DNA of 64,000 bases from Escherichia coli (GCF_003019035.1 NZ_CP027447.1); one strand, 5' to 3'; counted from the stretch's first letter, positions 39,546 to 49,133 are shown. Made by a program: numbers and translations. The notes: generated by a model from the sequence alone, not told the origin.

Positions 39546-39759
39546 ACCTGCACTCCAATTATTGACCCGCTCCTCACCGCGCCTCCCTCTCCGGCGGCGC
39601 GAATGCACATCTTATTGGCTATCACATCCGACACAAATGTTGCCATCCCATTGCTTAATCGAATAAAAATCAGGCTACATGGGTGCTAAATCTTTAACGA
39701 TAACGCCATTGAGGCTGGTCATGGCACTCATGAATCTGGTATACTTACCGTTACACATT

Positions 39760-40123
39760 GGGGCTGATTCTGGATTCGACGGGATTTGCGAAACCCAAGG
39801 TGCATGCCGAGGGGCGGTTGGCCTCGTAAAAAGCCGCAAAAAATAGTCGCAAACGACGAAAACTACGCTTTAGCAGCTTAATAACCTGCTTAGAGCCCTC
39901 TCTCCCTAGCCTCCGCTCTTAGGACGGGGATCAAGAGAGGTCAAACCCAAAAGAGATCGCGTGGAAGCCCTGCCTGGGGTTGAAGCGTTAAAACTTAATC
40001 AGGCTAGTTTGTTAGTGGCGTGTCCGTCCGCAGCTGGCAAGCGAATGTAAAGACTGACTAAGCATGTAGTACCGAGGATGTAGGAATTTCGGACGCGGGT
40101 TCAACTCCCGCCAGCTCCACCAC
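39760..40123 (+). ncRNA. ssrA: tmRNA (transfer-messenger RNA, 10Sa RNA)
   Basis: GGGGCTGATTCTGGATTCGACGGG... through the tag reading frame gcaaacgacgaaaactacgctttagcagcttaa (ANDENYALAA) to the tRNA-like 3' end GGTTCAACTCCCGCCAGCTCCACCA. Confidence 0.96.
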
Positions 40124-40156
40124 TTTTTAGTAAAATGACGTCTACTAAAGTCTACT

Positions 40157-40191
40157 AAGGCCGCATACCACAAGGGTTTGCGGCCTTTTTC
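40157..40191 (+). terminator. Rho-independent terminator downstream of ssrA, inside the island left arm
   Basis: aaggccgcataccacaagggtttgcggcc hairpin followed by ttttt. Confidence 0.75.
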
Positions 40192-40289
40192 ATGTCCAGT
40201 GAAGTCTACTGAGAATTGCTAGAAACCACTCCTTATGGCACCCTCCTATTATCCCTCGTCGATGAGGGAGTAAAAACGAGGGAGCAAAA

Positions 40290-41522
40290 ATGCCAAAGGT
40301 AGCAACAAAACTCACTGACACAGAGATCAAAAAGGCCAAGCCCACAGAGAAAGAGTTCACGCTATGGGATGGAGATGGCTTGTTCCTGCGCATCAAACCA
40401 AGTGGCAAAAAAATCTGGCACCTCGGCTATACCGTTCCATTAACCAAGAAACGGGCCAAAATGAGTCTTGGGTTCTATCCCTACCTGACACTTGCTCAAG
40501 CAAGAGCGCTACGGGATGAATACCTCTCTTTGCTTGCACAGGGTATCGATCCCCAATCCCACAATGAGCAAAAAGCCCAAGCGCTTAAAGATGCCACTGA
40601 ACACACATTCCAGACTGTAGCGAAAAAATGGCTTGATGAAAAAATTAAAACATCAGGCATATCGCAAGATCATGCTAAGGATATCTGGCGTAGCCTTGAA
40701 CGGAACATCTTTCCTACTTTAGGGGATGTTCCCATTAAAGAGATCCGCCCTAAAATGTTAAAACAACACCTTGACCCCATAGAACAAAGGGGCGTACTCG
40801 AAACCTTGCGACGTATAATTTCCCGACTTAATGAAATTTTCCGCTATGCCGCGACAGAAGAACTCATTGAGTTCAACCCCGCTGACAACCTTATCCAACG
40901 TTTTAGTAAACCCAAAAAGCAAAATATGCCTGCGTTGCCGCCAGATGAACTACCCCGTTTCATGACAGCATTATCAAACGCATCTATACGCTTAGAAACA
41001 CGTCTACTAATTGAATGGCAACTTCTTACTTGGGTTCGTCCCGGTGAAGCTGTACGCGCTCGCTGGACTGACATAGACGAAGAAAGCAAGTATTGGAACA
41101 TTCCATCCGATTTCATGAAGATGAAACGTCCTCATAAGGTTCCATTGAGCAAAGAAGCTATACGTATTCTTGAATCCATGAAACCAATCAGCGGTCATCG
41201 TGAGTGGGTTTTCCCCAGCATAAAAAATCCTTTAACACATATGCACGAGCAAACTGCCAACGCCGCATTAATCCGAATGGGCTTAGGTGGAGAACTCGTA
41301 GCACATGGCATGCGTTCTATTGCAAGAACAGCAGCAGAAGAAGCAGGAAAATTTAGGACAGAAGTTCTTGAAGCGGCTCTCGCCCACTCAAAAAAAGATG
41401 AAATCATTGCTGCTTATAACCGTACAGAATATTTAGTCGAGCGTGTCGAGTTAATGCAATGGTGGAGTGATTATCTCCAAATACAAAAATATAAGTCTTT
41501 AACAACTCTGATCGCCAGCTAA
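40290..41522 (+). CDS. P4-type (IntA/SlpA-like) tyrosine site-specific integrase
   Basis: 410 aa; N-terminal arm-binding region (KLTDTEIKKAKP...LWDGDGLFLRIKPSGKKIW) and C-terminal catalytic region with R...HxxR...Y context (VAHGMRSIARTAA...LAHS...AYNRTEY); located directly after ssrA. Confidence 0.92.
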   Translation: MPKVATKLTDTEIKKAKPTEKEFTLWDGDGLFLRIKPSGKKIWHLGYTVPLTKKRAKMSLGFYPYLTLAQARALRDEYLSLLAQGIDPQSHNEQKAQALKDATEHTFQTVAKKWLDEKIKTSGISQDHAKDIWRSLERNIFPTLGDVPIKEIRPKMLKQHLDPIEQRGVLETLRRIISRLNEIFRYAATEELIEFNPADNLIQRFSKPKKQNMPALPPDELPRFMTALSNASIRLETRLLIEWQLLTWVRPGEAVRARWTDIDEESKYWNIPSDFMKMKRPHKVPLSKEAIRILESMKPISGHREWVFPSIKNPLTHMHEQTANAALIRMGLGGELVAHGMRSIARTAAEEAGKFRTEVLEAALAHSKKDEIIAAYNRTEYLVERVELMQWWSDYLQIQKYKSLTTLIAS

Positions 41523-41679
41523 TCCTACAATCAACCCAATATCAGAAGCTGGCTTTAGTAGGGATACTTCCATTTTTCTGATATTGTATTACCATGTAGC
41601 TGAAAGTCAGATACCAAGTAGAAAAACACATTTTTATGTATGCTTTATCGAATAAAACATTAACCAAATAGGGGGACTA

Positions 41680-42399
41680 ATGGAAGATTTAGTTTGTAGT
41701 TGGTCACCAAAGCTGATCGTTGATCTTATAAAAAGTATCGCTTGGCCAGTAGTCGTCCTTCTCATCGGCTTCAGTTTTCGAACTCGAATTTTTGAAGTGG
41801 CACGTTCATTTTTTTCTAAAAACACAGTTTCAGAAATATCAGCTACAGTATCAGGTGTATCGGCAAAATTTGTGACAGCAAAGCAAACAACTGAAGTATT
41901 AGAAAGTGCTAGTACCAATGCAGCGAATTTACCAAAGAGTATGAGTATTGAGGCTATAAGAGCGCGACATGAACAGCATAAAACAGAATTCAGCGAAGAG
42001 TTATATCAATCAATAATTAAACATGCTTCCTCTTTAGATATTAATAATGATGAAAAAGTCAAAATTCTGGCACGTGAATTGTCTATTTATCAAGCTATAA
42101 TACGATATATTGACATTAATAAGATATTATTTCGCTCACAATACAATTTATTTTGTTCTATAAATAGTAATGGTGGTCAAATAAATAAAGAAGACGCCAA
42201 TCTTTTTTTTGAGGCGACCAAGAACAACAATAAAGAAGCATTCTCCGATTGGGATTGGATTAAATATATTGCCTATCCTGTTAGTAATAGCCTTATCTAT
42301 GAAGATAATAATTTTTATAAACTTACAGAGTTGGGAAGATCGTATATAGCTTTTATGTCAAAAAATCCACAACTAATCGACGAACTTGCAAAATTATAG
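41680..42399 (+). CDS. Hypothetical membrane-anchored protein (N-terminal TM helix), island cargo
   Basis: 239-aa ORF with aggggga RBS; hydrophobic segment IAWPVVVLLIGFSF; AT-rich codon usage; no recognisable family. Confidence 0.6.
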   Translation: MEDLVCSWSPKLIVDLIKSIAWPVVVLLIGFSFRTRIFEVARSFFSKNTVSEISATVSGVSAKFVTAKQTTEVLESASTNAANLPKSMSIEAIRARHEQHKTEFSEELYQSIIKHASSLDINNDEKVKILARELSIYQAIIRYIDINKILFRSQYNLFCSINSNGGQINKEDANLFFEATKNNNKEAFSDWDWIKYIAYPVSNSLIYEDNNFYKLTELGRSYIAFMSKNPQLIDELAKL

Positions 42400-42629
42400 T
42401 AGGGAATAATATTAAACCCTACTCAATGACTGTTTCAGATCTTGGTTCTGTATCCCATAAATGATCAGGTAAAGTCTAAGCGAATAGCGTTTAACAGGTG
42501 GGATGACTCACTACGTGAACCACCCACCTATAAAAAGGGTTTTTCTTCTGGTGAGTTGTCAATAAAAATGAAGGTTTCCACCTTTCATGCGGACCCTCCT
42601 TAATTTTTTTTGACAAGTTGAGATCGAGA

Positions 42630-43082
42630 CTATTTATCATTACGTTTTTTCATAAAATATTTATAACGTTCATCAGCTTCTTTTTGAAACTTTTCAGCGT
42701 CAAACGTATCAGTTTCTATTTTTATTTTTTGTTTTACCGCTTCATCTAATCTTTTATTTTCTTTCAATCTTTCTTTTTCTACTAATATAAGTTTATAGTA
42801 TTTTAGCTTAATATTAAAACTTGCTTTTGCTAACTCCTTAGCGTCAAAACCTATATTGTATTTTTTAAGAAGTTTCAATATATAATCTATAGTCATTTTT
42901 TTCACTTCCTTTTTTATTTTTTCTTCATGCGCATCTTTTTTTATACTCCCACTTTTTAACCATTGCTTAAATTTATAGCCATTATAATGCTGCCATTGAT
43001 ATATTTCAGCGGCATACATCACCGACAACATACAAACAATAAAAAATACAACCATAAAAACCACACATATTAAATAATACAT
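42630..43082 (-). CDS. Hypothetical membrane-anchored Lys/Glu-rich protein, gene 6
   Basis: 150 aa; N-terminal TM LICVVFMVVFFIVCMLSVMYAA then a charged helical region. Confidence 0.55.
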   Translation of the reverse strand: MYYLICVVFMVVFFIVCMLSVMYAAEIYQWQHYNGYKFKQWLKSGSIKKDAHEEKIKKEVKKMTIDYILKLLKKYNIGFDAKELAKASFNIKLKYYKLILVEKERLKENKRLDEAVKQKIKIETDTFDAEKFQKEADERYKYFMKKRNDK

Positions 43083-43083
43083 A

Positions 43084-43320
43084 TCAGCCCCCGCCTTTCC
43101 TTCTATATTGTTCTTTTATTAATGCTACGTGATATTTTTTTGCGTTGCTTATACTTACATCAGCAGAGTTTCTAGCAGAAGCAAAAGCACTTGAAACAAC
43201 AGAAGCAATAATGGCAACTAAGAAAGCAGCAACAAAAAAACCCATCACTGGCCCCATAAAACTAGCCCCACCGTCATCTATTGCTGGTTTTGCTTTTGCT
43301 AATAATGATAATAGGCTCAT
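43084..43320 (-). CDS. Hypothetical small membrane protein (single TM), gene 5
   Basis: 78 aa; hydrophobic core GPVMGFFVAAFLVAIIASVVSSAF followed by a basic tail. Confidence 0.55.
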   Translation of the reverse strand: MSLLSLLAKAKPAIDDGGASFMGPVMGFFVAAFLVAIIASVVSSAFASARNSADVSISNAKKYHVALIKEQYRRKGGG

Positions 43321-43730
43321 ATATTTCTCTCTTCTTCAATGTTTTTAATCGCTGTTTCTATTCTTTGTTTTACAAAGTCTCTAAACACATAACCTATTAT
43401 TCGCGCGTCTTCACATATATCTAACTCATCTTTTTTATGAAAATATAAATCAGCGCTTAAAAGCTCTTCGCTTTGAATATTTAACATTTTACTAGCAAGT
43501 GATATTCTAATAATATTTCGCACTTCTAAATCCAAGCTTGCTCTATCATGCTTATTCAAAAGCTGGAGCGGATGAAAATCTTTTTTTCTTTTCATTTCTT
43601 GCATATCATTATCAAAATCTATCATTAAAAAATGTAAGCAAGTAAAAGACGTATCATAGAAGTTTAAGCGGTTCATCATATCCGCCGTTCCCTCTTTTCG
43701 AGGGTTCGGGTTAGGTCTTAATTTATTCAT
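43317..43730 (-). CDS. Hypothetical protein, gene 4
   Basis: 137 aa; overlaps gene 3 by 8 bp and gene 5 by 4 bp. Confidence 0.55.
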   Translation of the reverse strand: MNKLRPNPNPRKEGTADMMNRLNFYDTSFTCLHFLMIDFDNDMQEMKRKKDFHPLQLLNKHDRASLDLEVRNIIRISLASKMLNIQSEELLSADLYFHKKDELDICEDARIIGYVFRDFVKQRIETAIKNIEEERNI

Positions 43731-44064
43731 CTGCTTTACTCCTTTTCTTGTTGTTTTTTAGCTTCCATTCATTCAATCTTTTATCGCCTTCAACTTTTAA
43801 GAACTCACGCTGATCGTGTATTCTTTTCAGTATTAGATTATTAGTTAACGCTCCTACTAACAAAGAAATATCATTCGCAAAATCTAATGTCTCGATGTTA
43901 TTTTCTCTAACTATTCTTATTAGTTCAGCGCCGGCTTTTATTTTACGTGTCGTATCTTTTTTCCTTTCTTCTGCCTTCATTTCTTGCTCCATTCTATTCA
44001 ATAAGTTTGCTCTTTGCTCAATTTCTTTTTTTAATTTATTATATTTTTCTATATTAAACGCCAT
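43723..44064 (-). CDS. Hypothetical basic coiled-coil protein, gene 3
   Basis: 113 aa, Lys/Glu-rich heptad-like N-terminus (EKYNKLKKEIEQRANLLNRMEQEMKAEERKK). Confidence 0.55.
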   Translation of the reverse strand: MAFNIEKYNKLKKEIEQRANLLNRMEQEMKAEERKKDTTRKIKAGAELIRIVRENNIETLDFANDISLLVGALTNNLILKRIHDQREFLKVEGDKRLNEWKLKNNKKRSKADE

Positions 44065-44383
44065 TTTCTGAACCTCTCTTTTCTTTTATCGTAATAAAAA
44101 AGGCAATCAACCCACTGATCAATAAAATTGGTAAAGTTAAAATAAACCCTACCAATAACACTAATGAAAATCCGAGCACGCCGGACATCTCATATAGATT
44201 TCCGAACAATGTGCTTTCGTTTTTATACTCAACCATATTCTGTAAAACAGACCTTTTTTCAATATCTTTTTCTTTTAAAGAATCTTCTCTATATTCATAA
44301 TCTTCACAACTCAAAGAAATTTCCACAGTGTTATCATTCAAATACTCATTATCATAATAGTCGTAATCATTATTCCCAATCAT
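44054..44383 (-). CDS. Hypothetical membrane protein (acidic Tyr/Asp-rich N-terminus, C-terminal TM segment), gene 2
   Basis: 109 aa; hydrophobic stretch GVLGFSLVLLVGFILTLPILLISGLIAFFITI; translationally coupled to neighbours. Confidence 0.55.
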   Translation of the reverse strand: MIGNNDYDYYDNEYLNDNTVEISLSCEDYEYREDSLKEKDIEKRSVLQNMVEYKNESTLFGNLYEMSGVLGFSLVLLVGFILTLPILLISGLIAFFITIKEKRGSENGV

Positions 44384-44565
44384 TCTAGATCTCCTTCTAA
44401 CGTGTCATAAACAACAGTAAAATCATTCTCATGAGAAAGAAGATTGTAAGTTATAAATAAGCTTGTCCTATAAACAATATCTGTATTTTCATCCTGTAGT
44501 TTTTGAATAATCAACTTAACAAGATCAGACGCTGCCACTTCAATTTTTTTATCAATATCATTCAT
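44380..44565 (-). CDS. Hypothetical small acidic protein, gene 1 of the six-gene island operon
   Basis: 61 aa; agagg-type RBS; stop overlaps the next gene start by 4 bp. Confidence 0.5.
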   Translation of the reverse strand: MNDIDKKIEVAASDLVKLIIQKLQDENTDIVYRTSLFITYNLLSHENDFTVVYDTLEGDLE

Positions 44566-44737
44566 GTTCCACCTCTTTTATTTTTTATGATTTCTGTTAT
44601 ATATATTAAGTAATATAATTATTTATTTAAGTAAAGCGCGATATATATTTTTTTGTTTTTAGAACGCATTTTTCAGATAAAAGGCTCACGTGCGGCGGCT
44701 ATTTTAGTTTTGCTAAAAACTACAATAGCGCACTTAT

Positions 44738-44761
44738 ACATTCTTCGAATGTGTGCGCCCC
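44738..44761 (+). promoter_or_regulatory. Candidate origin of transfer (oriT) with MobQ-type nick motif
   Basis: Inverted repeat acattc-ttc-gaatgt immediately followed by GTGCGCCCC, resembling the recalled RSF1010 oriT nick region (IR + TAAGTGCG/CCCT); lies about 115 bp upstream of the relaxase gene. Confidence 0.55.
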
Positions 44762-44874
44762 ATAAATGGGGGTTTACTAACGCAGAAAAATAAAAAGTAA
44801 TATTCGCTTTATGCTCAATATTACTTAATCGCTTTTCAAAAAAGCAAATATATTTTTATTATTTTAAAAAGTAT

Positions 44875-46203
44875 GTGTTTCAATATCAGGAGATAAAAAC
44901 AATGGCAATATTTCATATGAGCGCTCAAACAATAACACGCAGCAAGGGGTATAGTAGCGTAGCTGCGGCAGCTTATCGCCACGGCGAAAAGTTAACGGAC
45001 GAACACACAGGAGAGATCCACGACTACAGCAAAAAGAAAGGTGTTTCAGACAGTGTTATATTAATACCTGAAAGCGCAGACCGTAATTTTTTAAAGCCTG
45101 CGTATTTATGGAACATGATAGAAAAAAGCGAAAAAAGAAAAGATGCGCAGTTAGCTCGCGAGTTTAATATTGCGCTTCCTGTCGAAATGACAGATGAACA
45201 AAAAAAGGCGTTAGCAATAGATTTTTGCCAAGAGCATTTTGTAAAAAATGGAATGATTGCTGATATAGCTTTTCACAAGCTCGATAGCGACAACCCACAT
45301 TTTCATGTAATGCTAACCACCCGCAGCCTTACGCCGGACGGTTCAGAGTTCGGACATAAAGTCAGGGAATGGAACAACAAAGAGCAGCTCGAAGGCTGGC
45401 GCAAGAGCTGGGCTGACACAGCGAACGAGCACATGCAAAAGGCTGGCATCGATGCGCATATAGATCACAGATCACTGAAAGAACAAAAAGCAGAGCTTGA
45501 CGCTATCCTCCCCCCTCTCAGAACGATTGAGCAAGAGGCGCAGGCTATCAGCTTAGACAGACCGCCGACTATCCATAGAGGCCATAGCCGCAATCCAGAG
45601 CGACAAGCACGCTTTGACGTGCTCCAAGAAGTGAAAGTATCACAAGAGGAAAAAGCACTTAACCACATTGAACAGAAACAACTTAAGCCCTCGCCGCTGG
45701 CTCCAGCTTCCTCCCCTGCCGCATCTTTGCAAGATGCTACACAAGGAGGCAATGAAAACAACCCGCAAAATAGACTCGGCGAAGTTGGCGAATATCTTCA
45801 ATCTAAACTCAATAAAGAAGATAAAGCAGATCTTAATACTGATAATGAAATCAAAGTTCACACTACTAAAAATAATAGGGAAAGCAGTTCAGCAGCAGCT
45901 ATAGGTTCAACATCAAATATTAATTTAACCGATGAGAAAACAGATAAGAATCTACACTTAACAGAAGCACAAAAAGAAGAGTTAGAGGATTTAGAAAATA
46001 AAGAAGCAGCAGCGAAGAAAAAAGCTTATCTGATGAGCGGAGCTGCCGTTCCTGAACTTTCTCAAGATTACAAAACACTGTCAAAAAGTGAGTTTAAAAA
46101 TAAGCTTCATACAGCTAAACAATCAATATCATTAACTGAAAAGAGATTTAATGAAGAATGTGAAGCATATGATAACAGAAGAAAACGACCAATACCGCGC
46201 TAA
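44875..46203 (+). CDS. MobA/MobL-family (MobQ-type) conjugative relaxase, relaxase domain only
   Basis: N-terminus MAIFHMSAQTITRSKGYSSVAAAAYRHGEKL aligns with RSF1010 MobA MAIYHLTAKTGSRSGG...ADYIQREGKY (catalytic Tyr region); HFHVMLTTR matches the His motif HCHLMISER; C-terminal half is low-complexity Lys/Glu/Ser-rich with no primase domain. Confidence 0.85.
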   Translation: MFQYQEIKTMAIFHMSAQTITRSKGYSSVAAAAYRHGEKLTDEHTGEIHDYSKKKGVSDSVILIPESADRNFLKPAYLWNMIEKSEKRKDAQLAREFNIALPVEMTDEQKKALAIDFCQEHFVKNGMIADIAFHKLDSDNPHFHVMLTTRSLTPDGSEFGHKVREWNNKEQLEGWRKSWADTANEHMQKAGIDAHIDHRSLKEQKAELDAILPPLRTIEQEAQAISLDRPPTIHRGHSRNPERQARFDVLQEVKVSQEEKALNHIEQKQLKPSPLAPASSPAASLQDATQGGNENNPQNRLGEVGEYLQSKLNKEDKADLNTDNEIKVHTTKNNRESSSAAAIGSTSNINLTDEKTDKNLHLTEAQKEELEDLENKEAAAKKKAYLMSGAAVPELSQDYKTLSKSEFKNKLHTAKQSISLTEKRFNEECEAYDNRRKRPIPR

Positions 46204-46563
46204 GTATTTTGCTCATTTTTTATCCCCAATGAATGACTTAGCGTTATATTTACTTTAACTAATTGATACTATTGATTTATTTTCACCTCACGTCGTATCG
46301 TTTATATCGATCAAAATCGACAAAGTGATAGTTAACACCTATCACAACCAATTCATCGATCGATTAAAACAATTAATACACCGATCGATAAACGAGATTT
46401 AATCGTTAAAAACTATCAATATTAAATAATTGATCTGTTATAACGATCATTTTGCTTGAGAGTAGCCCTCCTCATGGTATGCTCGGAGCGTGGAAGACCG
46501 GGCTACTCACCTTGATATCTTCTTGATTAAGCAAAACTATCGCTCTATGAGGAATGAAATTTT

Positions 46564-47058
46564 ATGAAAACCGAAAACATTATTTTTCTTGTTTGGGCAG
46601 TGATTTTTATCCTGATTCTCTGCCAACTTTTTTATTTTGGCCCTAAAAAAAGAAGATACCTCAATACTTATATAGAGGTATTAGATGGTGATGTCCTCTC
46701 ATATGAATGTCAAAATACCGGCGTAGTTATTGATACTAAAAAAAACACAGTACGTATTTTCAATACATATAAGGACAGCACTTTCAAATACGACAACATC
46801 AGGGAAATAAATTATACGCTATCCGAAGCCGGAAAAATTTATAGCACAAGTAATAATCTAAACTCTATGATAAAGTCCGCTGGAGCTAACAGTAATGAAC
46901 AAATGTTAGCTAATCAGCGTTCCGGTATTTTTATACTGACAGATGATATAAAAAATCCTTCATGGAAAATCAATCTACCAATGAAAAACAAAACATCATC
47001 TACCAATCAGGAGATCTGCGATCGATGGCTTCTCATTTTTAAAAAATACGTTTTATAA
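46564..47058 (+). CDS. Hypothetical membrane-anchored protein
   Basis: 164 aa; gagga RBS; N-terminal TM IIFLVWAVIFILILCQLFYF. Confidence 0.55.
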   Translation: MKTENIIFLVWAVIFILILCQLFYFGPKKRRYLNTYIEVLDGDVLSYECQNTGVVIDTKKNTVRIFNTYKDSTFKYDNIREINYTLSEAGKIYSTSNNLNSMIKSAGANSNEQMLANQRSGIFILTDDIKNPSWKINLPMKNKTSSTNQEICDRWLLIFKKYVL

Positions 47059-47090
47059 CTTTGTTTTTTATTTTTATCTTTGGAGTTGAC

Positions 47091-47468
47091 ATGAAAAAAT
47101 TGATTGCGGCAGCATTTATTATTCTCCCTTTAGCAAGTTGTACTGTTTATGGAAACAAATCCATTAAAGACGAAACGCAGCAAAATATAGCCTCTAAAAT
47201 TATAAAAGGTAAAACTACTCAAAAAGATATCCTTCAACTTTATGGAGAACCTCAGACTAAAGAAACTAACGATGGTAAAGAAATGTGGGGATATTCCGTT
47301 ATGTCCGGTGAATCTCAGATTTCAAATTACATACCGGGATTAGCGTTATTGAAGAATAGCAGCACAGCGCACATGAAAGAACTTGAGATCTTGTTTAAAG
47401 GTGATGTAGTTGAACGCTATACCTTTAGACAAACGGCAAGCAAAGCTTCTCGCGGGTTGTTAGATTAA
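47091..47468 (+). CDS. Hypothetical lipoprotein (possible SmpA/OmlA-like fold)
   Basis: Start at MKKLIAAAFIILPLASC (lipobox LASC) preceded by ggag RBS; about 125 aa; weak pattern similarity to BamE-type lipoproteins (Q..L..YG.P.....W.Y). Confidence 0.55.
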   Translation: MKKLIAAAFIILPLASCTVYGNKSIKDETQQNIASKIIKGKTTQKDILQLYGEPQTKETNDGKEMWGYSVMSGESQISNYIPGLALLKNSSTAHMKELEILFKGDVVERYTFRQTASKASRGLLD

Positions 47469-47730
47469 TTTAAATTAAATACCATTTTATCTTTAAAAAG
47501 AAGTTGGAATAGTCCGACTTCTTTTCTATTTTATCAATAACATGCATTATTTATATTAGTGCCTTATGAAATGGCACCTTACTTTTTATATTTCCCTATC
47601 TGGGGGTTTAACCTTTGTTTTTTATTAAAAAAAATTTTGTACTAGTAGTACTAATTAATTAATTTAAAAATTTTTGGTTTTAAGGTTTTGGGGTTTGTGT
47701 TTTAGCGGGGCGGCTTTCAGCCGTAGTAGT

Positions 47731-47760
47731 TTTCCTCCGAAGGAGGAAATAGTTTTTCTT
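47731..47760. terminator. Perfect palindrome followed by T-run (terminator-like) in the island non-coding region
   Basis: tttcctccgaaggaggaaa followed by tagtttttcttt. Confidence 0.5.
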
Positions 47761-48087
47761 TAAGCATTCCCCCCCTACCCCCCACGCCAAAAAGGCTAAA
47801 AAAGAGAGATAGGAGATGCTCATTGCGTCTTGAAAATATTCAGAACGTTTCCATTCTGATACTTCCCCCACGACCCACGCAAACACAAATCATGAAACTT
47901 TCAAACAACTCTCGTTTTACTAAAGAGTCTATGCTACTGTTTGTAAATTTTTTAGATTGTGCGATTCAGGTTGGCAGCTACGCATATCCCGGTTAACCGC
48001 TGCCGCAATATTCTAAGTTTCACCAAACACTCGATGTCCTTCGTACTTAGACCTTGATACAACAAGGGTAATATTATATTGCTTTTG

Positions 48088-48223
48088 TAGATTAAATGTT
48101 TCTGGAAATGGTATTGACATTTTATCTATGTCAAAGTCGGCGAAATTTGTTTAATCATGCAGATTAGAGGCTTCTGGAAGTGGTATTTAATATTAGTTAA
48201 AAGTCGACGAAGCATTTCTAATC
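48088..48223. repeat. Tandem imperfect direct repeat of about 66-70 bp (two copies)
   Basis: Copy 1 gtagattaaatgtttctggaaatggtattgacatt...gtcaaagtcggcgaaatttgtttaatc and copy 2 gcagattagaggcttctggaagtggtatttaatatt...aaaagtcgacgaagcatttctaatc align by eye with several mismatches and a short gap. Confidence 0.6.
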
Positions 48224-48469
48224 TTTTGTATCTTTATATTATATAAATCTATATATAACACCAGTCAATAGATGAAATCAAAAATATTTTAAAAACATGA
48301 CTAGATGAAAAACAAAAAAAGACCAGATTAAACCCCAGTCTCTTTTTTACTTAATATCAGTTATGTTTTTCATATATAGTTCTAAAACGCTCTGTACGCG
48401 ATTTTGAGACGTTTTACACTGGAAGCGGCGTAATCATATAAATAATAAAATAGAATACTGTAATGATTT

Positions 48470-48673
48470 TTATGCCGCTTGATTACGCGAATAAAAAATC
48501 TTATCATCAATCCATTCGTCAACTTCACTTTCAACAAATGCGATAGTTCTTTCACCAGTCTTGATCGGAGAAGGGAAATCACCCCGGCTAATCAGCCGAT
48601 AGATCCACGCTTTACAAAAACCAGTCTTGTTTAACACTTCGGGTATGCGGATAAGTCTTTTTCTTTCGTTCAT
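48470..48673 (-). CDS. AlpA-family (HTH_17, excisionase-like) transcriptional regulator
   Basis: MNERKRLIRIPEVLNKTGFCKAWIYRLISRGDFPSPIKTGERTIAFVESEVDEWI matches the AlpA/prophage CP4-57 regulator pattern; start chosen at the Met preceded by a gagga RBS (ORF track starts 4 codons upstream). Confidence 0.8.
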   Translation of the reverse strand: MNERKRLIRIPEVLNKTGFCKAWIYRLISRGDFPSPIKTGERTIAFVESEVDEWIDDKIFYSRNQAA

Positions 48674-49133
48674 ATATTTCCTCATAGTTGTTTTGATGAG
48701 GCTATTATTCGAATATCGCTTATGACGATCAACAACTTTTTTAGCAAAAAGTGCTTTTTTAGTTGACTATTTTAAATTAACAGTCATTTAATCACCTTTG
48801 GAAGTTGAACTCATGAGTTCAACTCCTCACCGCTAGTCATGACATTCAAAATGTGCTTATTTTTTAGCCACAATACTTTTTTTATCCCTTTATTGCACCT
48901 CAATGTAAAATACAAATAATTAATATATTTAATAATCAAATGATTAAAGAGTCGATTACAGGGACGCCAGCCAATCATGATTGGACGGTGTAAGGACAAC
49001 ACTAATAAAAACAGGAAGTTAGCAGTCTCAGCAGGACACCGACCAGACGGTGAGGAGACATAAAAGGATACGCAAAGGAGCCGCGGCCCCTGGTGATATG
49101 AAAGCCCACAGATGTGGGCTTTTTCGTTGATGG

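What the first reader, a model, noticed from the sequence alone, without database searches (positions are those of the whole stretch)
40138..40213. Triplicated TCTACTA(A/G)G motif beside the ssrA 3' end (candidate integrase arm sites) and degenerate attR
Within about 80 bp after tmRNA there are three copies of gtctacta(a/g)g (40141-40150, 40151-40160 as a direct tandem, and 40203-40213) flanking the terminator hairpin. Arm-type binding sites for P4-family integrases are short direct repeats in this position. At the far end, 48801-48826 contains agttgaactc / agttcaactcc, of which GTTCAACTCC exactly matches the ssrA 3' core (GGTTCAACTCCCGCC). Together these mark plausible attL and attR.
Basis: seen in the sequence. 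Interest (0 to 1): 0.4.

Follow-up and report, generated by a model that had tools for sequence, protein, structure and literature searches.

The report
Excisionase (AlpA) sites beside tmRNA gene
The repeated GTCTACT motif next to the tmRNA gene is real and conserved. It most likely marks where the island's small excision-control protein (AlpA family) binds, not its integrase. All of this is ordinary mobile-island architecture.

Summary
The window is E. coli. An 8.8-kb low-GC mobilizable island (integrase, MobQ relaxase, AlpA) sits between ssrA and ypjA.

The motif is real. GTCTACTRAR occurs only three times in 64 kb, all within 74 bp after ssrA. A fourth, degenerate copy (GTCCAGTGAA) makes two tandem 10-bp-phased pairs around an island-supplied ssrA terminator. 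The sites are kept at the same positions in five other genera.

They are probably not integrase arm-type sites:
- They lie on one arm only.
- They do not vary with integrase lineage.
- Islands at thrW and leuX have integrases only 33-36% identical but AlpA proteins 61-73% identical, and they carry the same motif in the same two-block layout.
- CP4-57 has a closer integrase (49%) but a distant AlpA (32%), and it carries a different motif.
- The layout matches the experimentally mapped TorI excisionase sites of KplE1.

Better arm-type candidates are the GAGGG-type repeats next to the int start, which have weaker look-alikes in the far arm (not above chance here; significant in relatives).

The proposed attR (48801-48826) is a perfect 22-bp palindrome inside the island. 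The real right junction is a decayed ssrA 3' copy, CGCCAGC-CA, at 48965-48973. It abuts the DNA that follows ssrA in island-free strains.

This is ordinary biology and a useful annotation correction.

The parts
39760..40122 (+). ssrA (tmRNA gene), the integration target. Its last 14 nt, CGCCAGCTCCACCA, contain the att identity block.
   Evidence: ARAGORN. Rfam RF00023, 295.8 bits. In most of 5,425 E. coli genomes, homology to the window stops exactly at 40122.
40109..40115 (+). CGCCAGC, the left copy of the 7-bp exact direct repeat that bounds the island. It is the inferred crossover (overlap) region of attL. T40116 is U357 of the acceptor-stem G.U pair.
   Evidence: This is the only exact identity shared with the right junction. 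In CP4-57 the attR differs from ssrA on both sides of GCCAGC, and excision is reported to leave a one-base change (PMC3105296). CP4So excision gives delta-U (PMC5148205).
40140..40159 (+). Block 1: two tandem 10-bp sites, GTCTACTAAA and GTCTACTAAG. Inferred AlpA-family excisionase (RDF) binding sites.
40157..40192 (+). Island-supplied intrinsic terminator for ssrA (stem GGCCGCA/TGCGGCC followed by U5).
   Evidence: Folding energy -20.6 kcal/mol, z = -5.1. Three pairs show compensatory changes across lineages, including CP4-57. Absent from island-free strains.
40194..40213 (+). Inferred AlpA-family RDF sites next to the int regulatory region.
   Evidence: The position (+72 to +91 after the RNA gene) parallels TorI block I3;4;5 of KplE1 (+69 to +96).
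40214..40246 (+). Conserved block AATTGCTAGAAACCACTCCTTATGGCACCCTCC. Probable int regulatory region. Its 3' part is arm-type candidate A (reverse complement GGAGGGTGCCA).
   Evidence: Column identity 0.89 across 8 arms from 6 genera. The consensus scan found no sigma-70 promoter here.
40236..40289 (.). Four GAGGG(A/T) repeats, candidate integrase arm-type sites of the P' arm: A 40236-46 (-), B 40248-58 (-), C 40263-75 (+), D 40277-89 (+). B and C can also pair as a hairpin, and D overlaps the Shine-Dalgarno sequence.
   Evidence: Four of the 7 GAGGG[AT] hits in the whole island lie here. The motif changes with integrase subgroup. Equivalent repeats in KplE1 are the mapped IntS P' sites.
40290..41522 (+). 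Integrase, 410 aa, of the P4/CP4-57 type.
   Evidence: Pfam Arm-DNA-bind_3, Phage_int_M and Phage_integrase. 49% identical to K-12 IntA and 29% to IntS.
48470..48673 (-). AlpA-family gene (67 aa), the inferred recombination directionality factor that binds the GTCTACT sites.
   Evidence: Pfam PF05930, E = 4.7e-18. PDB 8c3t (AlpA family), E = 1e-5; TorI 1z4h, weak match. The recognition helix KAWIYRLIS is shared with the AlpA proteins of L038, L046 and L048.
48803..48824 (.). It is not the att core. Role unknown: an operator upstream of alpA, or a P-arm accessory site.
   Evidence: Identical in L004. An inverted AGTTCA(A/G)CT pair lies about 165 bp from the core in the diverged L038 arm. A GTTCAA/TTGAAC pair lies upstream of alpA in L046.
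48880..48901 (-). P-arm candidates for integrase arm-type sites: E AAGGGATAAAA (reverse complement of 48880-90) and F GAGGTGCAATAA (reverse complement of 48890-901). They resemble P' copies B and A.
   Evidence: The homologous position in L038 carries GGGTTCAAT/GGTTCCAT, matching that island's own P' repeats (p <= 0.007). For the window alone the sharing is not significant (p about 0.2).
48934..48946 (+). IHF-consensus-like site AATCAAATGATTA (WATCAANNNNTTR), about 20 bp left of the core.
   Evidence: Read from the sequence. L038 has AATCAATATATTA at the same place. Consensus match only.
48956..48973 (+). True right junction (attR remnant): conserved P-arm end TTACAGGGA, then CGCCAGC (48965-71), then CA. 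This is a decayed copy of the ssrA 3' end, lacking T and a further 4 nt relative to ssrA.
   Evidence: L004 and L038 have TTACAGGGACGCCAGCCCACCA followed by ATCATGATTGG. Island-free L002 has ...CGCCAGCTCCACCA followed by ATCATGATTGG. K-12 attR.
48974..49134 (+). Chromosomal flank (ATCATGATTGGACGG...) that directly follows ssrA in island-free E. coli. It leads to the ypjA terminator and the 3' end of ypjA.
   Evidence: 2,851 of 5,426 genomes have ssrA joined directly to this flank.

Best explanation
The GTCTACT-type repeats are four sites in two 10-bp-phased tandem pairs, at 40140-40159 and 40194-40213. They are most likely binding sites for the island's AlpA-family recombination directionality factor (excisionase), encoded at 48470-48673. 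They lie in the integrase-proximal (P') arm of attL, between the crossover core at the ssrA 3' end and the integrase arm-type sites.

Inferred mechanism, by analogy with TorI of KplE1:
- Several AlpA monomers bind cooperatively, one helical turn apart, and bend the arm.
- The bend lets integrase bound at the GAGGG-type arm sites next to its own start codon reach the core and assemble the excisive intasome.
- Occupancy of block 2 also modulates int transcription.

The island also supplies the ssrA terminator that sits between the two blocks.

Strand exchange is inferred to occur within CGCCAGC (40109-40115 and 48965-48971). The real attR is the decayed ssrA 3' copy at 48965-48973, not the palindrome at 48803-48824. 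Because this attR lacks U357 and four more bases, excision would truncate the tmRNA 3' end, and excision itself is probably impaired.

Shown here: the sites, their conservation, the island boundaries, and the fact that the motif tracks AlpA rather than Int. Inferred: actual binding, bending, the regulatory effect and the crossover position.
For: 1. Motif clustering: 3 exact matches in 64 kb, all within 74 bp, against 0.18 expected. A fourth copy lies in register.

2. Positional conservation: the sites are kept in 9 P' arms from Escherichia, Enterobacter, Pluralibacter, Kluyvera, Prodigiosinella and Dryocola. G1 is invariant and A5 nearly so. Column identity is 0.86-0.93 in the sites, 0.81 in the adjacent spacer and 0.70 nearer int.

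3. Double dissociation between integrase and AlpA:
- The thrW island L046 (Int 36%, AlpA 73% identical) has GTCTCCTTAA-GTCTACTCAA ... GTCTCTGCTC-GTCTACTCAC-GTTCACAGAA-ATCTACGGTG.
- The leuX island L048 (Int 33%, AlpA 61%) has GTCTACTAAC-GTCTACTTTA-GTCCACAAAA ... GTCTGTTCAC-GTCTACTCAA.
- A position weight matrix at >= 8 bits gives 3 hits in each spacer, against 0.14 and 0.23 expected. All are on the tRNA-to-int strand and at similar offsets.
- CP4-57 (Int 49%, AlpA 32%) and KplE1 give 0 hits and carry other motifs: GTCC[TG]AAGAG and GTTCG.

4. Recognition helix: KAWIYRLIS is identical in the AlpA proteins of the window, L038, L046 and L048. K-12 AlpA has RATIYDWLN and TorI has KTFIYDRIK.

5. 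Architecture matches KplE1. There, footprinted TorI sites form two blocks in attL (+6 to +33 and +69 to +96 after argW). The second block is 10-bp phased and abuts the -35 of PintS, and the IntS arm sites lie nearer the ATG (PMC2951348, PMC3509656). Here the blocks are at +18 to +37 and +72 to +91, with the ATG at +168.

6. A separate repeat class fits the arm-type criteria better. It is int-proximal, specific to the integrase lineage, and present in both arms. Sharing between arms is significant in KplE1, CP4-57 and L043/L038 (p <= 0.007).

7. AlpA-family proteins drive excision of CP4-57 and CP4So (PMC3105296; PMC5148205).

8. Island boundaries.
Against: - There are no binding data for this AlpA or this Int. 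All assignments are comparative.
- The dissociation rests on two independent islands (thrW and leuX). The weight matrix and its threshold were chosen after seeing the sites.
- Loci L005-L010 carry the sites but show no AlpA homologue (tblastn, E < 0.01) in the DNA available. For L005 plus L040 that is about 70 kb of a rearranged tandem array. Those islands may have lost the gene, use one in trans, or the binder may be something else.
- In the window itself, arm-type-like copies in the far arm are weak (p about 0.2).
- One inverted near-copy of the motif (GTCAACTAAA, 48758-48767) and GTTCA half-sites in the palindrome leave open some binding on the other arm too.
- The direction of any effect on int is unknown: TorI represses, whereas K-12 AlpA is annotated as an activator.
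- No int promoter could be identified.
Confidence: 0.65

Rival explanations
1. The repeats are arm-type sites bound by the N-terminal domain of the P4/CP4-57-type integrase, like P'1-P'3 of lambda.
For: - The integrase has an Arm-DNA-bind_3 domain.
- The sites are short direct repeats in the int-proximal arm, are physically linked to int, and are conserved with it in six genera.
- An inverted near-copy, GTCAACTAAA, lies about 200 bp from the core in the other arm.
Against: - The motif is unchanged across integrase subgroups whose N-domains and int-proximal repeats differ.
- It recurs next to integrases only 33-36% identical, at other tRNA targets, and is replaced in CP4-57, whose integrase is 49% identical.
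- It has no convincing copies on the P arm.
- In KplE1, the sites at the equivalent positions are TorI sites. The IntS arm sites are the TAAA-containing repeats nearer the ATG, which are present in both arms.
Confidence: 0.12
2. The sites are AlpA-family sites, but their main job is transcriptional. They would control read-through of the ssrA terminator, or activity of the int promoter, rather than shape the excisive intasome.
For: - The two blocks bracket an intrinsic terminator that lies between the very active ssrA gene and int.
- K-12 AlpA is annotated as a transcriptional activator.
- P. aeruginosa AlpA is a DNA-loaded processive antiterminator (PMC7969949, PMC9371919).
- TorI block 2 represses PintS.
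Against: - The thrW and leuX islands keep both blocks with no evident terminator between them.
- P. aeruginosa AlpA loads at a site inside a promoter, not 380 nt into a transcription unit.
- Block 1 of KplE1 has no effect on transcription yet is conserved, which argues for an architectural role.
Confidence: 0.1
3. The repeats are sites for a host factor, or a functionless local duplication carried along with the int module.
For: - Conservation of the sites (0.86-0.93) is only modestly above that of neighbouring spacer (0.81) at this divergence.
- Several loci with the sites show no AlpA gene in the DNA available.
Against: - The same motif, phasing and two-block layout recur in otherwise unalignable attL arms at thrW and leuX.
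- Analogous but different repeats sit at the same positions in CP4-57 and KplE1.
- Island-free ssrA loci lack the repeats, so ssrA does not need them.
Confidence: 0.06

Closest known systems
TorI (RDF) binding sites I1-I5 in attL of the KplE1/CPS-53 prophage at argW, E. coli K-12 (Panis, Ansaldi and co-workers; PMC2951348, PMC3509656)
   Same: - int reads inward from attL and the RDF gene sits at the far end by attR.
- Short direct repeats form two blocks between the RNA-gene 3' end and int. The second block is 10-bp phased and lies just upstream of the int regulatory region.
- Integrase arm-type repeats lie nearer the ATG and also in the other arm.
- The offsets are nearly superimposable.
   Different: - The motif differs: GTTCG/GTCCG/GATCG there, GTCTACTNAR here.
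- There are 5 sites there and 4 here.
- KplE1 has no terminator between its blocks.
- The target is argW, not ssrA.
- Int is only 29% identical, and TorI is only marginally similar to this AlpA.
- Binding is shown for TorI and only inferred here.
CP4-57 cryptic prophage recombination module (ssrA-intA ... alpA) of E. coli K-12
   Same: - Same target and same right-hand chromosomal flank.
- Int is 49% identical.
- It has an AlpA-family RDF whose overproduction causes excision.
- It supplies its own ssrA terminator, flanked by GTC-type repeats (GTCCTAAGAG | hairpin | GTCCCGCGAA GTCCGAAGAG).
- Its attR also lacks the T of CGCCAGCTCCACCA.

   Different: - alpA lies near int, not at the far end.
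- The repeat motif and the arm repeats (TAGGCCCA) differ.
- AlpA is only 32% identical.
- It is a 22-kb prophage remnant, whereas this is an 8.8-kb island with a MobQ relaxase.
Lambda Int arm-type sites P'1-P'3
   Same: Tandem repeats of about 10 bp in the int-proximal arm of a heterobivalent tyrosine recombinase att site.
   Different: - Lambda arm sites occur on both arms and are specific to Int.
- Here the motif is on one arm only and tracks the RDF.
- In this family that role fits the GAGGG-type repeats instead.
CP4So prophage of Shewanella oneidensis at ssrA (PMC5148205)
   Same: It has a P4-like integrase and an AlpA excisionase at ssrA. Its attR lacks one T, so excision yields ssrA-delta-U, which lacks the acceptor G.U pair.
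   Different: It is a different genus and a 36-kb prophage. No binding-site map has been reported. In the window the attR has lost four further bases.

Membership tests
Integrase arm-type sites (heterobivalent tyrosine recombinase) | The cognate integrase carries an N-terminal arm-DNA-binding domain | tested here: met
   Pfam PF13356 Arm-DNA-bind_3, E = 1.9e-25, residues 8-94.
Integrase arm-type sites (heterobivalent tyrosine recombinase) | The same motif is present in both the P and P' arms | tested here: not met
   No GTCTACT copy lies within 450 bp of the right junction. There is only one inverted 1-mismatch copy, at 48758-67 (8.0 bits against 12.6-14.6 bits for the P' sites, scored with the same matrix in that call). 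The diverged L038 arm has no hits.
Integrase arm-type sites (heterobivalent tyrosine recombinase) | The motif co-varies with the integrase lineage | tested here: not met
   The same motif occurs with integrases 33-36% identical (thrW, leuX). A different motif occurs with the 49%-identical IntA.
Integrase arm-type sites (heterobivalent tyrosine recombinase) | The sites are bound by the Int N-terminal domain | not testable with these tools
   Needs EMSA or footprinting.
RDF (Xis/TorI/AlpA winged-helix excisionase) binding sites | The element encodes an RDF of this family | tested here: met
   The 67-aa ORF at 48470-48673 matches PF05930 Phage_AlpA (E = 4.7e-18) and PDB 8c3t (E = 1e-5).
RDF (Xis/TorI/AlpA winged-helix excisionase) binding sites | Several direct repeats spaced one helical turn apart | tested here: met
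   Starts at 40140/40150 and 40194/40204. The thrW and leuX relatives have 2-4 copies per block at 10-bp spacing.
RDF (Xis/TorI/AlpA winged-helix excisionase) binding sites | The sites lie on one arm, between the core and the integrase arm-type sites | tested here: met
   The order is core 40109-22, blocks 40140-40213, GAGGG repeats 40236-89. The arm-site assignment is itself inferred.
RDF (Xis/TorI/AlpA winged-helix excisionase) binding sites | The motif co-varies with the RDF | tested here: met
   AlpA 61-100% identical with an identical recognition helix goes with GTCTACT. AlpA 32% identical goes with GTCC[TG]AAGAG. TorI goes with GTTCG.
RDF (Xis/TorI/AlpA winged-helix excisionase) binding sites | Specific, cooperative binding that is required for excision | not testable with these tools
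   Needs EMSA or footprinting and excision assays.
   The empty-site flank ATCATGATTGG starts at 48974, and the candidate lies 148 bp to its left. After the 10-nt match, identity to ssrA is 5 of 14 (read). The candidate is a perfect palindrome.
attR core of an ssrA-inserted island (48965-48973) | A copy of the target's 3' end at the island boundary, directly abutting the DNA that follows ssrA in empty-site genomes | tested here: met
   CGCCAGC-CA is followed by ATCATGATTGG. The intact form CGCCAGCCCACCA occurs in L004 and L038 at the same place.
P4/CP4-57-type tyrosine integrase | Arm-binding, central and catalytic domains, with full-length similarity to IntA/IntS | tested here: met
   Three Pfam domains. 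49% identical to IntA over 405 aa and 29% to IntS over 393 aa. Identity to phage P4 Int itself was not measured.
Intrinsic (Rho-independent) terminator | A stable GC-rich hairpin followed by a U-tract, downstream of a transcription unit | tested here: met
   Folding energy -20.6 kcal/mol, z = -5.1, U5 tail. Compensatory pairs. The simple scan missed it because of its 13-nt loop.

The most novel reading that the evidence does not exclude
The AlpA-type sites bracket the terminator that the island itself supplies for ssrA. AlpA bound there might therefore act as P. aeruginosa AlpA does, as a DNA-loaded antiterminator. It would let the very strong ssrA transcription read through into int, so that tmRNA gene expression powers integrase supply at excision.

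A milder version concerns cross-talk. The same GTCTACT cassette sits in front of unrelated integrases at ssrA, thrW and leuX. One island's AlpA could therefore trigger excision of several unrelated islands in the same cell.
Probability: 0.06. Interest if true: 0.6.

Novelty: new member of a known kind. Interest (0 to 1): 0.22.

Why it matters
The main value is correct annotation.
- It fixes the true boundaries of a small mobilizable island at the E. coli ssrA hotspot: 40123-48973, with the 7-bp repeat CGCCAGC at each end.
- It shows that this copy has a damaged attR, so excision would destroy the tmRNA 3' end.
- It separates two classes of repeats that are easily confused: excisionase sites and integrase arm sites.

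It also gives a testable DNA motif (GTCTACTNAR, phased at 10 bp) for one AlpA subfamily. As far as I know no site has been defined for that subfamily. The motif is shared by islands with unrelated integrases at three different RNA genes, which suggests the RDF and its sites move as a module and could allow cross-activation between islands.

None of this changes the general picture of tyrosine-recombinase att sites.

Tried and rejected
- **Search for a second copy of the ssrA 3' end in the window** (24-mer, up to 3 mismatches). None was found. The right junction had to be located by comparison with island-free genomes instead.
- **General repeat search across the island.** It found only low-complexity AT-rich pairs.
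- **Apparent co-ordinated change of all copies in Pluralibacter L007** (GTTCA... instead of GTCTA...). At first I read this as co-variation with the integrase. I rejected that because its N-domain is like those of L009 and L010, which keep GTCTA. A mixed arm (L040b) also shows that GTTCAGT and GTCTACT are interchangeable variants.
- **Right end of the L005 island.** It proved to be a rearranged tandem array with IS elements and a prophage, and was not usable as a clean P arm.
- **Phage record phi467 (integrase 80% identical).** I hoped it held an intact attP. It is an Stx prophage followed in tandem by an intA island, so the arm to the left of its ssrA fragment belongs to another element.
It gave only weak, single inverted hits, one of them inside a coding region.
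- **Promoter scan of 39700-40400.** It found only the ssrA promoter and no int promoter. A sigma-54 reading of TGGCAC fails at the -12 element (plus inspection).
- **Reading GTTCAACTCC plus downstream sequence as a decayed T-loop-type attR.** Only 5 of the next 14 bases match ssrA.
- **L047.** Its alpA-like gene lies beside the HPI integrase but belongs to the neighbouring island, so I did not use it.
- **Papers that could not be retrieved.** Kirby 1994 and Wang 2009 were not available. The statement that K-12 AlpA activates intA therefore rests on the RefSeq product name and my own recollection.

Full report
**What the locus is.** The window is E. coli. Positions 39700-42700 are 100% identical to strain SCU-301. 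The annotated neighbourhood runs smpB, ssrA, integrase, hypothetical genes, MobQ relaxase, DUF4755, a helix-turn-helix gene, then ypjA. ssrA occupies 39760-40122. GC content falls from about 50% to 30-35% between about 41 and 48.5 kb. The 410-aa integrase (40290-41522) has Arm-DNA-bind_3, central and catalytic domains. ORF 44875-46203 is a MobA/MobL relaxase. The 67-aa ORF at 48470-48673 on the minus strand is an AlpA-family protein (PF05930; best PDB match 8c3t AlpA, then weakly TorI). Together these make a small integrative mobilizable element at the ssrA hotspot.

**Checking the observation.** GTCTACTAAA (40140-49), GTCTACTAAG (40150-59) and GTCTACTGAG (40204-13) are present. GTCTACTRAR matches nowhere else in 64 kb on either strand, against 0.18 expected. 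A fourth copy, GTCCAGTGAA (40194-40203), stands in 10-bp register with the third, so there are two tandem pairs. Between them lies a hairpin plus U-tract (-20.6 kcal/mol, z = -5.1). Its stem keeps pairing through compensatory changes in relatives, including CP4-57. Island-free strains lack all of this, so the island brings its own ssrA terminator. At the far end the quoted strings exist, and GTTCAACTCC equals ssrA 40099-40108. Together they form a perfect 22-bp palindrome at 48803-48824.

**Where the island ends.**
- In most of 5,425 E. coli genomes, homology to the window stops exactly at 40122.
- Island-free genomes join ssrA directly to ATCATGATTGGACGG.... 2,851 of 5,426 complete genomes have this empty site with an intact T, and none shows a delta-T scar.
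- That flank begins at window 48974 and is preceded by TTACAGGGA-CGCCAGC-CA.
- Related islands (L004, L038) have TTACAGGGA-CGCCAGCCCACCA at the same place. K-12 CP4-57 has CTCCGCCAGCCCACCA.
- So the true attR remnant is at 48965-48973. It lacks the T of CGCCAGCTCCACCA, as its relatives do, plus four more bases.
After its 10-nt match, only 5 of the next 14 bases agree with ssrA.

**Likely crossover.** The only exact identity between the two ends is CGCCAGC (40109-15 and 48965-71). In CP4-57 the attR differs from ssrA on both sides of GCCAGC, and excision is reported to leave ssrA with a single base change (PMC3105296). In Shewanella CP4So, excision deletes the U of the acceptor G.U pair (PMC5148205). 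Both fit strand exchange within CGCCAGC. That is an inference. Here, excision would give a tmRNA lacking five 3' bases, and the damaged right core half-site probably reduces excision.

**Are the repeats conserved?** Yes. I collected integrase relatives (80-84% identical at the protein level) from Enterobacter, Pluralibacter, Kluyvera, Prodigiosinella and Dryocola, together with E. coli variants. All keep the four sites at the same positions. G1 is invariant and A5 nearly so. The consensus is GT[CT][TC]A[CGT]T[AG]A[AG].

**Integrase arm sites or excisionase sites?** Five lines of evidence favour the excisionase.
1. The motif is confined to the P' arm. The other arm has only one inverted 1-mismatch copy.
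2. A different repeat class sits next to the int start. In the window it comprises four GAGGG(A/T) copies at 40236-40289, which are 4 of the 7 such hexamers in the island. This class changes with integrase subgroup: GG.TACTAAA in the L005 group, GGGTCC in the L007/L043 group, TAGGCCCA in CP4-57, GGGTAAAA in KplE1, and TAGGG-type or ATGTAAC-type repeats (by lineage) in relatives only 34-42% identical. It recurs in the far arm about 80-95 bp from the core. Sharing between the arms is significant for KplE1, CP4-57 and L043/L038 (p <= 0.007). For the window alone it is not (p about 0.2).
3. In KplE1, whose IntS is 29% identical over its full length, the experimentally mapped layout is the same. 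Five TorI sites (GTTCG, GTCCG, GATCG) form two blocks after argW, with the second 10-bp phased and abutting the -35 of PintS. The IntS P' sites, which contain TAAA, lie nearer the ATG (PMC2951348, PMC3509656).
4. The decisive comparison is a double dissociation. An island at thrW (Int 36%, AlpA 73% identical) and one at leuX (Int 33%, AlpA 61%) carry the same GTCTACT motif in two 10-bp-phased blocks at similar offsets, followed by their own different arm repeats (GGGGGTAT and ATGGTAT). A weight matrix at >= 8 bits gives 3 hits in each spacer, against 0.14 and 0.23 expected. CP4-57 (Int 49%, AlpA 32%) and KplE1 give none.
5. The predicted recognition helix, KAWIYRLIS, is identical in the AlpA proteins of all the GTCTACT islands and differs in K-12 AlpA and TorI.

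**Conclusion on mechanism.** The repeats are most likely AlpA-family RDF sites. They would bend the P' arm for the excisive intasome and would also touch int regulation. Binding itself is not shown.

Caveats:
- Several loci with the sites show no AlpA gene in the DNA available.
- The dissociation rests on two islands.
- The sign of any effect on int is unknown.
- No int promoter was found.

**The palindrome.** It is identical in L004. In the diverged L038 arm, an inverted pair of AGTTCA(A/G)CT lies about 165 bp from the core. In the thrW island a GTTCAA/TTGAAC pair lies upstream of alpA. It may be an alpA operator or an accessory site. Its GTTCA half-sites fall within the degenerate first five bases of the block motif. 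I leave it unassigned.

**Verdict.** This is a new member of a well-known kind of system, and interest is low to modest.

Noticed in passing
window 54436-54457: A second, decayed CP4-57-type attR remnant: TTCAGACACCGCCAACTCACCA, against K-12 attR TTCAGACTCCGCCAGCCCACCA. L004 has GCCAGCCCACCA at the same place. This suggests the ypjA / recombinase-fragment segment (48974-54457) is itself an old ssrA island remnant.
   Followed up: partly
window 40123-48973; loci L004, L005, L046: The island is a small int-MobQ-DUF4755-AlpA mobilizable element with unannotated low-GC cargo. Relatives with the same backbone carry a HEPN protein (L004) or an ABC-three-component system (L005). This points to a defence-cargo platform at ssrA.
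   Followed up: no
window 41500-48500 compared with L001 (SCU-301): The otherwise identical RefSeq genome differs by 26 indels of 1-3 bases, almost all in homopolymers. These break its small ORFs and the DUF4755 gene, whereas the window has longer intact ORFs. They are probably long-read consensus errors in the public assembly.
   Followed up: partly
window 40252-40269 and equivalent positions in L005, L007, L043 and CP4-57: The int 5' leader can form a hairpin (CCCTCGTCGATGAGGG). The arms of this hairpin are the inverted and direct arm-type candidates. Each lineage keeps an inverted-plus-direct arrangement with its own sequence. The last copy overlaps the Shine-Dalgarno sequence, so integrase binding could also affect translation.
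   Followed up: no
window 40214-40235: AATTGCTAGAAAC.ACT is almost invariant across six genera but has no recognisable -10 partner. It is absent from CP4-57. Function unknown.
   Followed up: no
E. coli genome collection: About half of complete E. coli genomes (2,851 of 5,426) have an empty ssrA att site. None of them shows the delta-T scar that CP4-57-type excision is reported to leave.
   Followed up: partly
window 56849-56924: ARAGORN calls this tRNA-Met (CAT). RefSeq annotates the same gene as tRNA-Ile. It is presumably the lysidine-modified ileY type.
   Followed up: no
window 48737-48764 and 48860-48869; 40123-40135: TTTTTAG(C/T) recurs three times upstream of alpA and once immediately after the ssrA CCA (CTTTTTAGTAAA). 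The last of these is conserved in 7 of 9 P' arms. It could be a further shared site, or just AT-rich chance.
   Followed up: no
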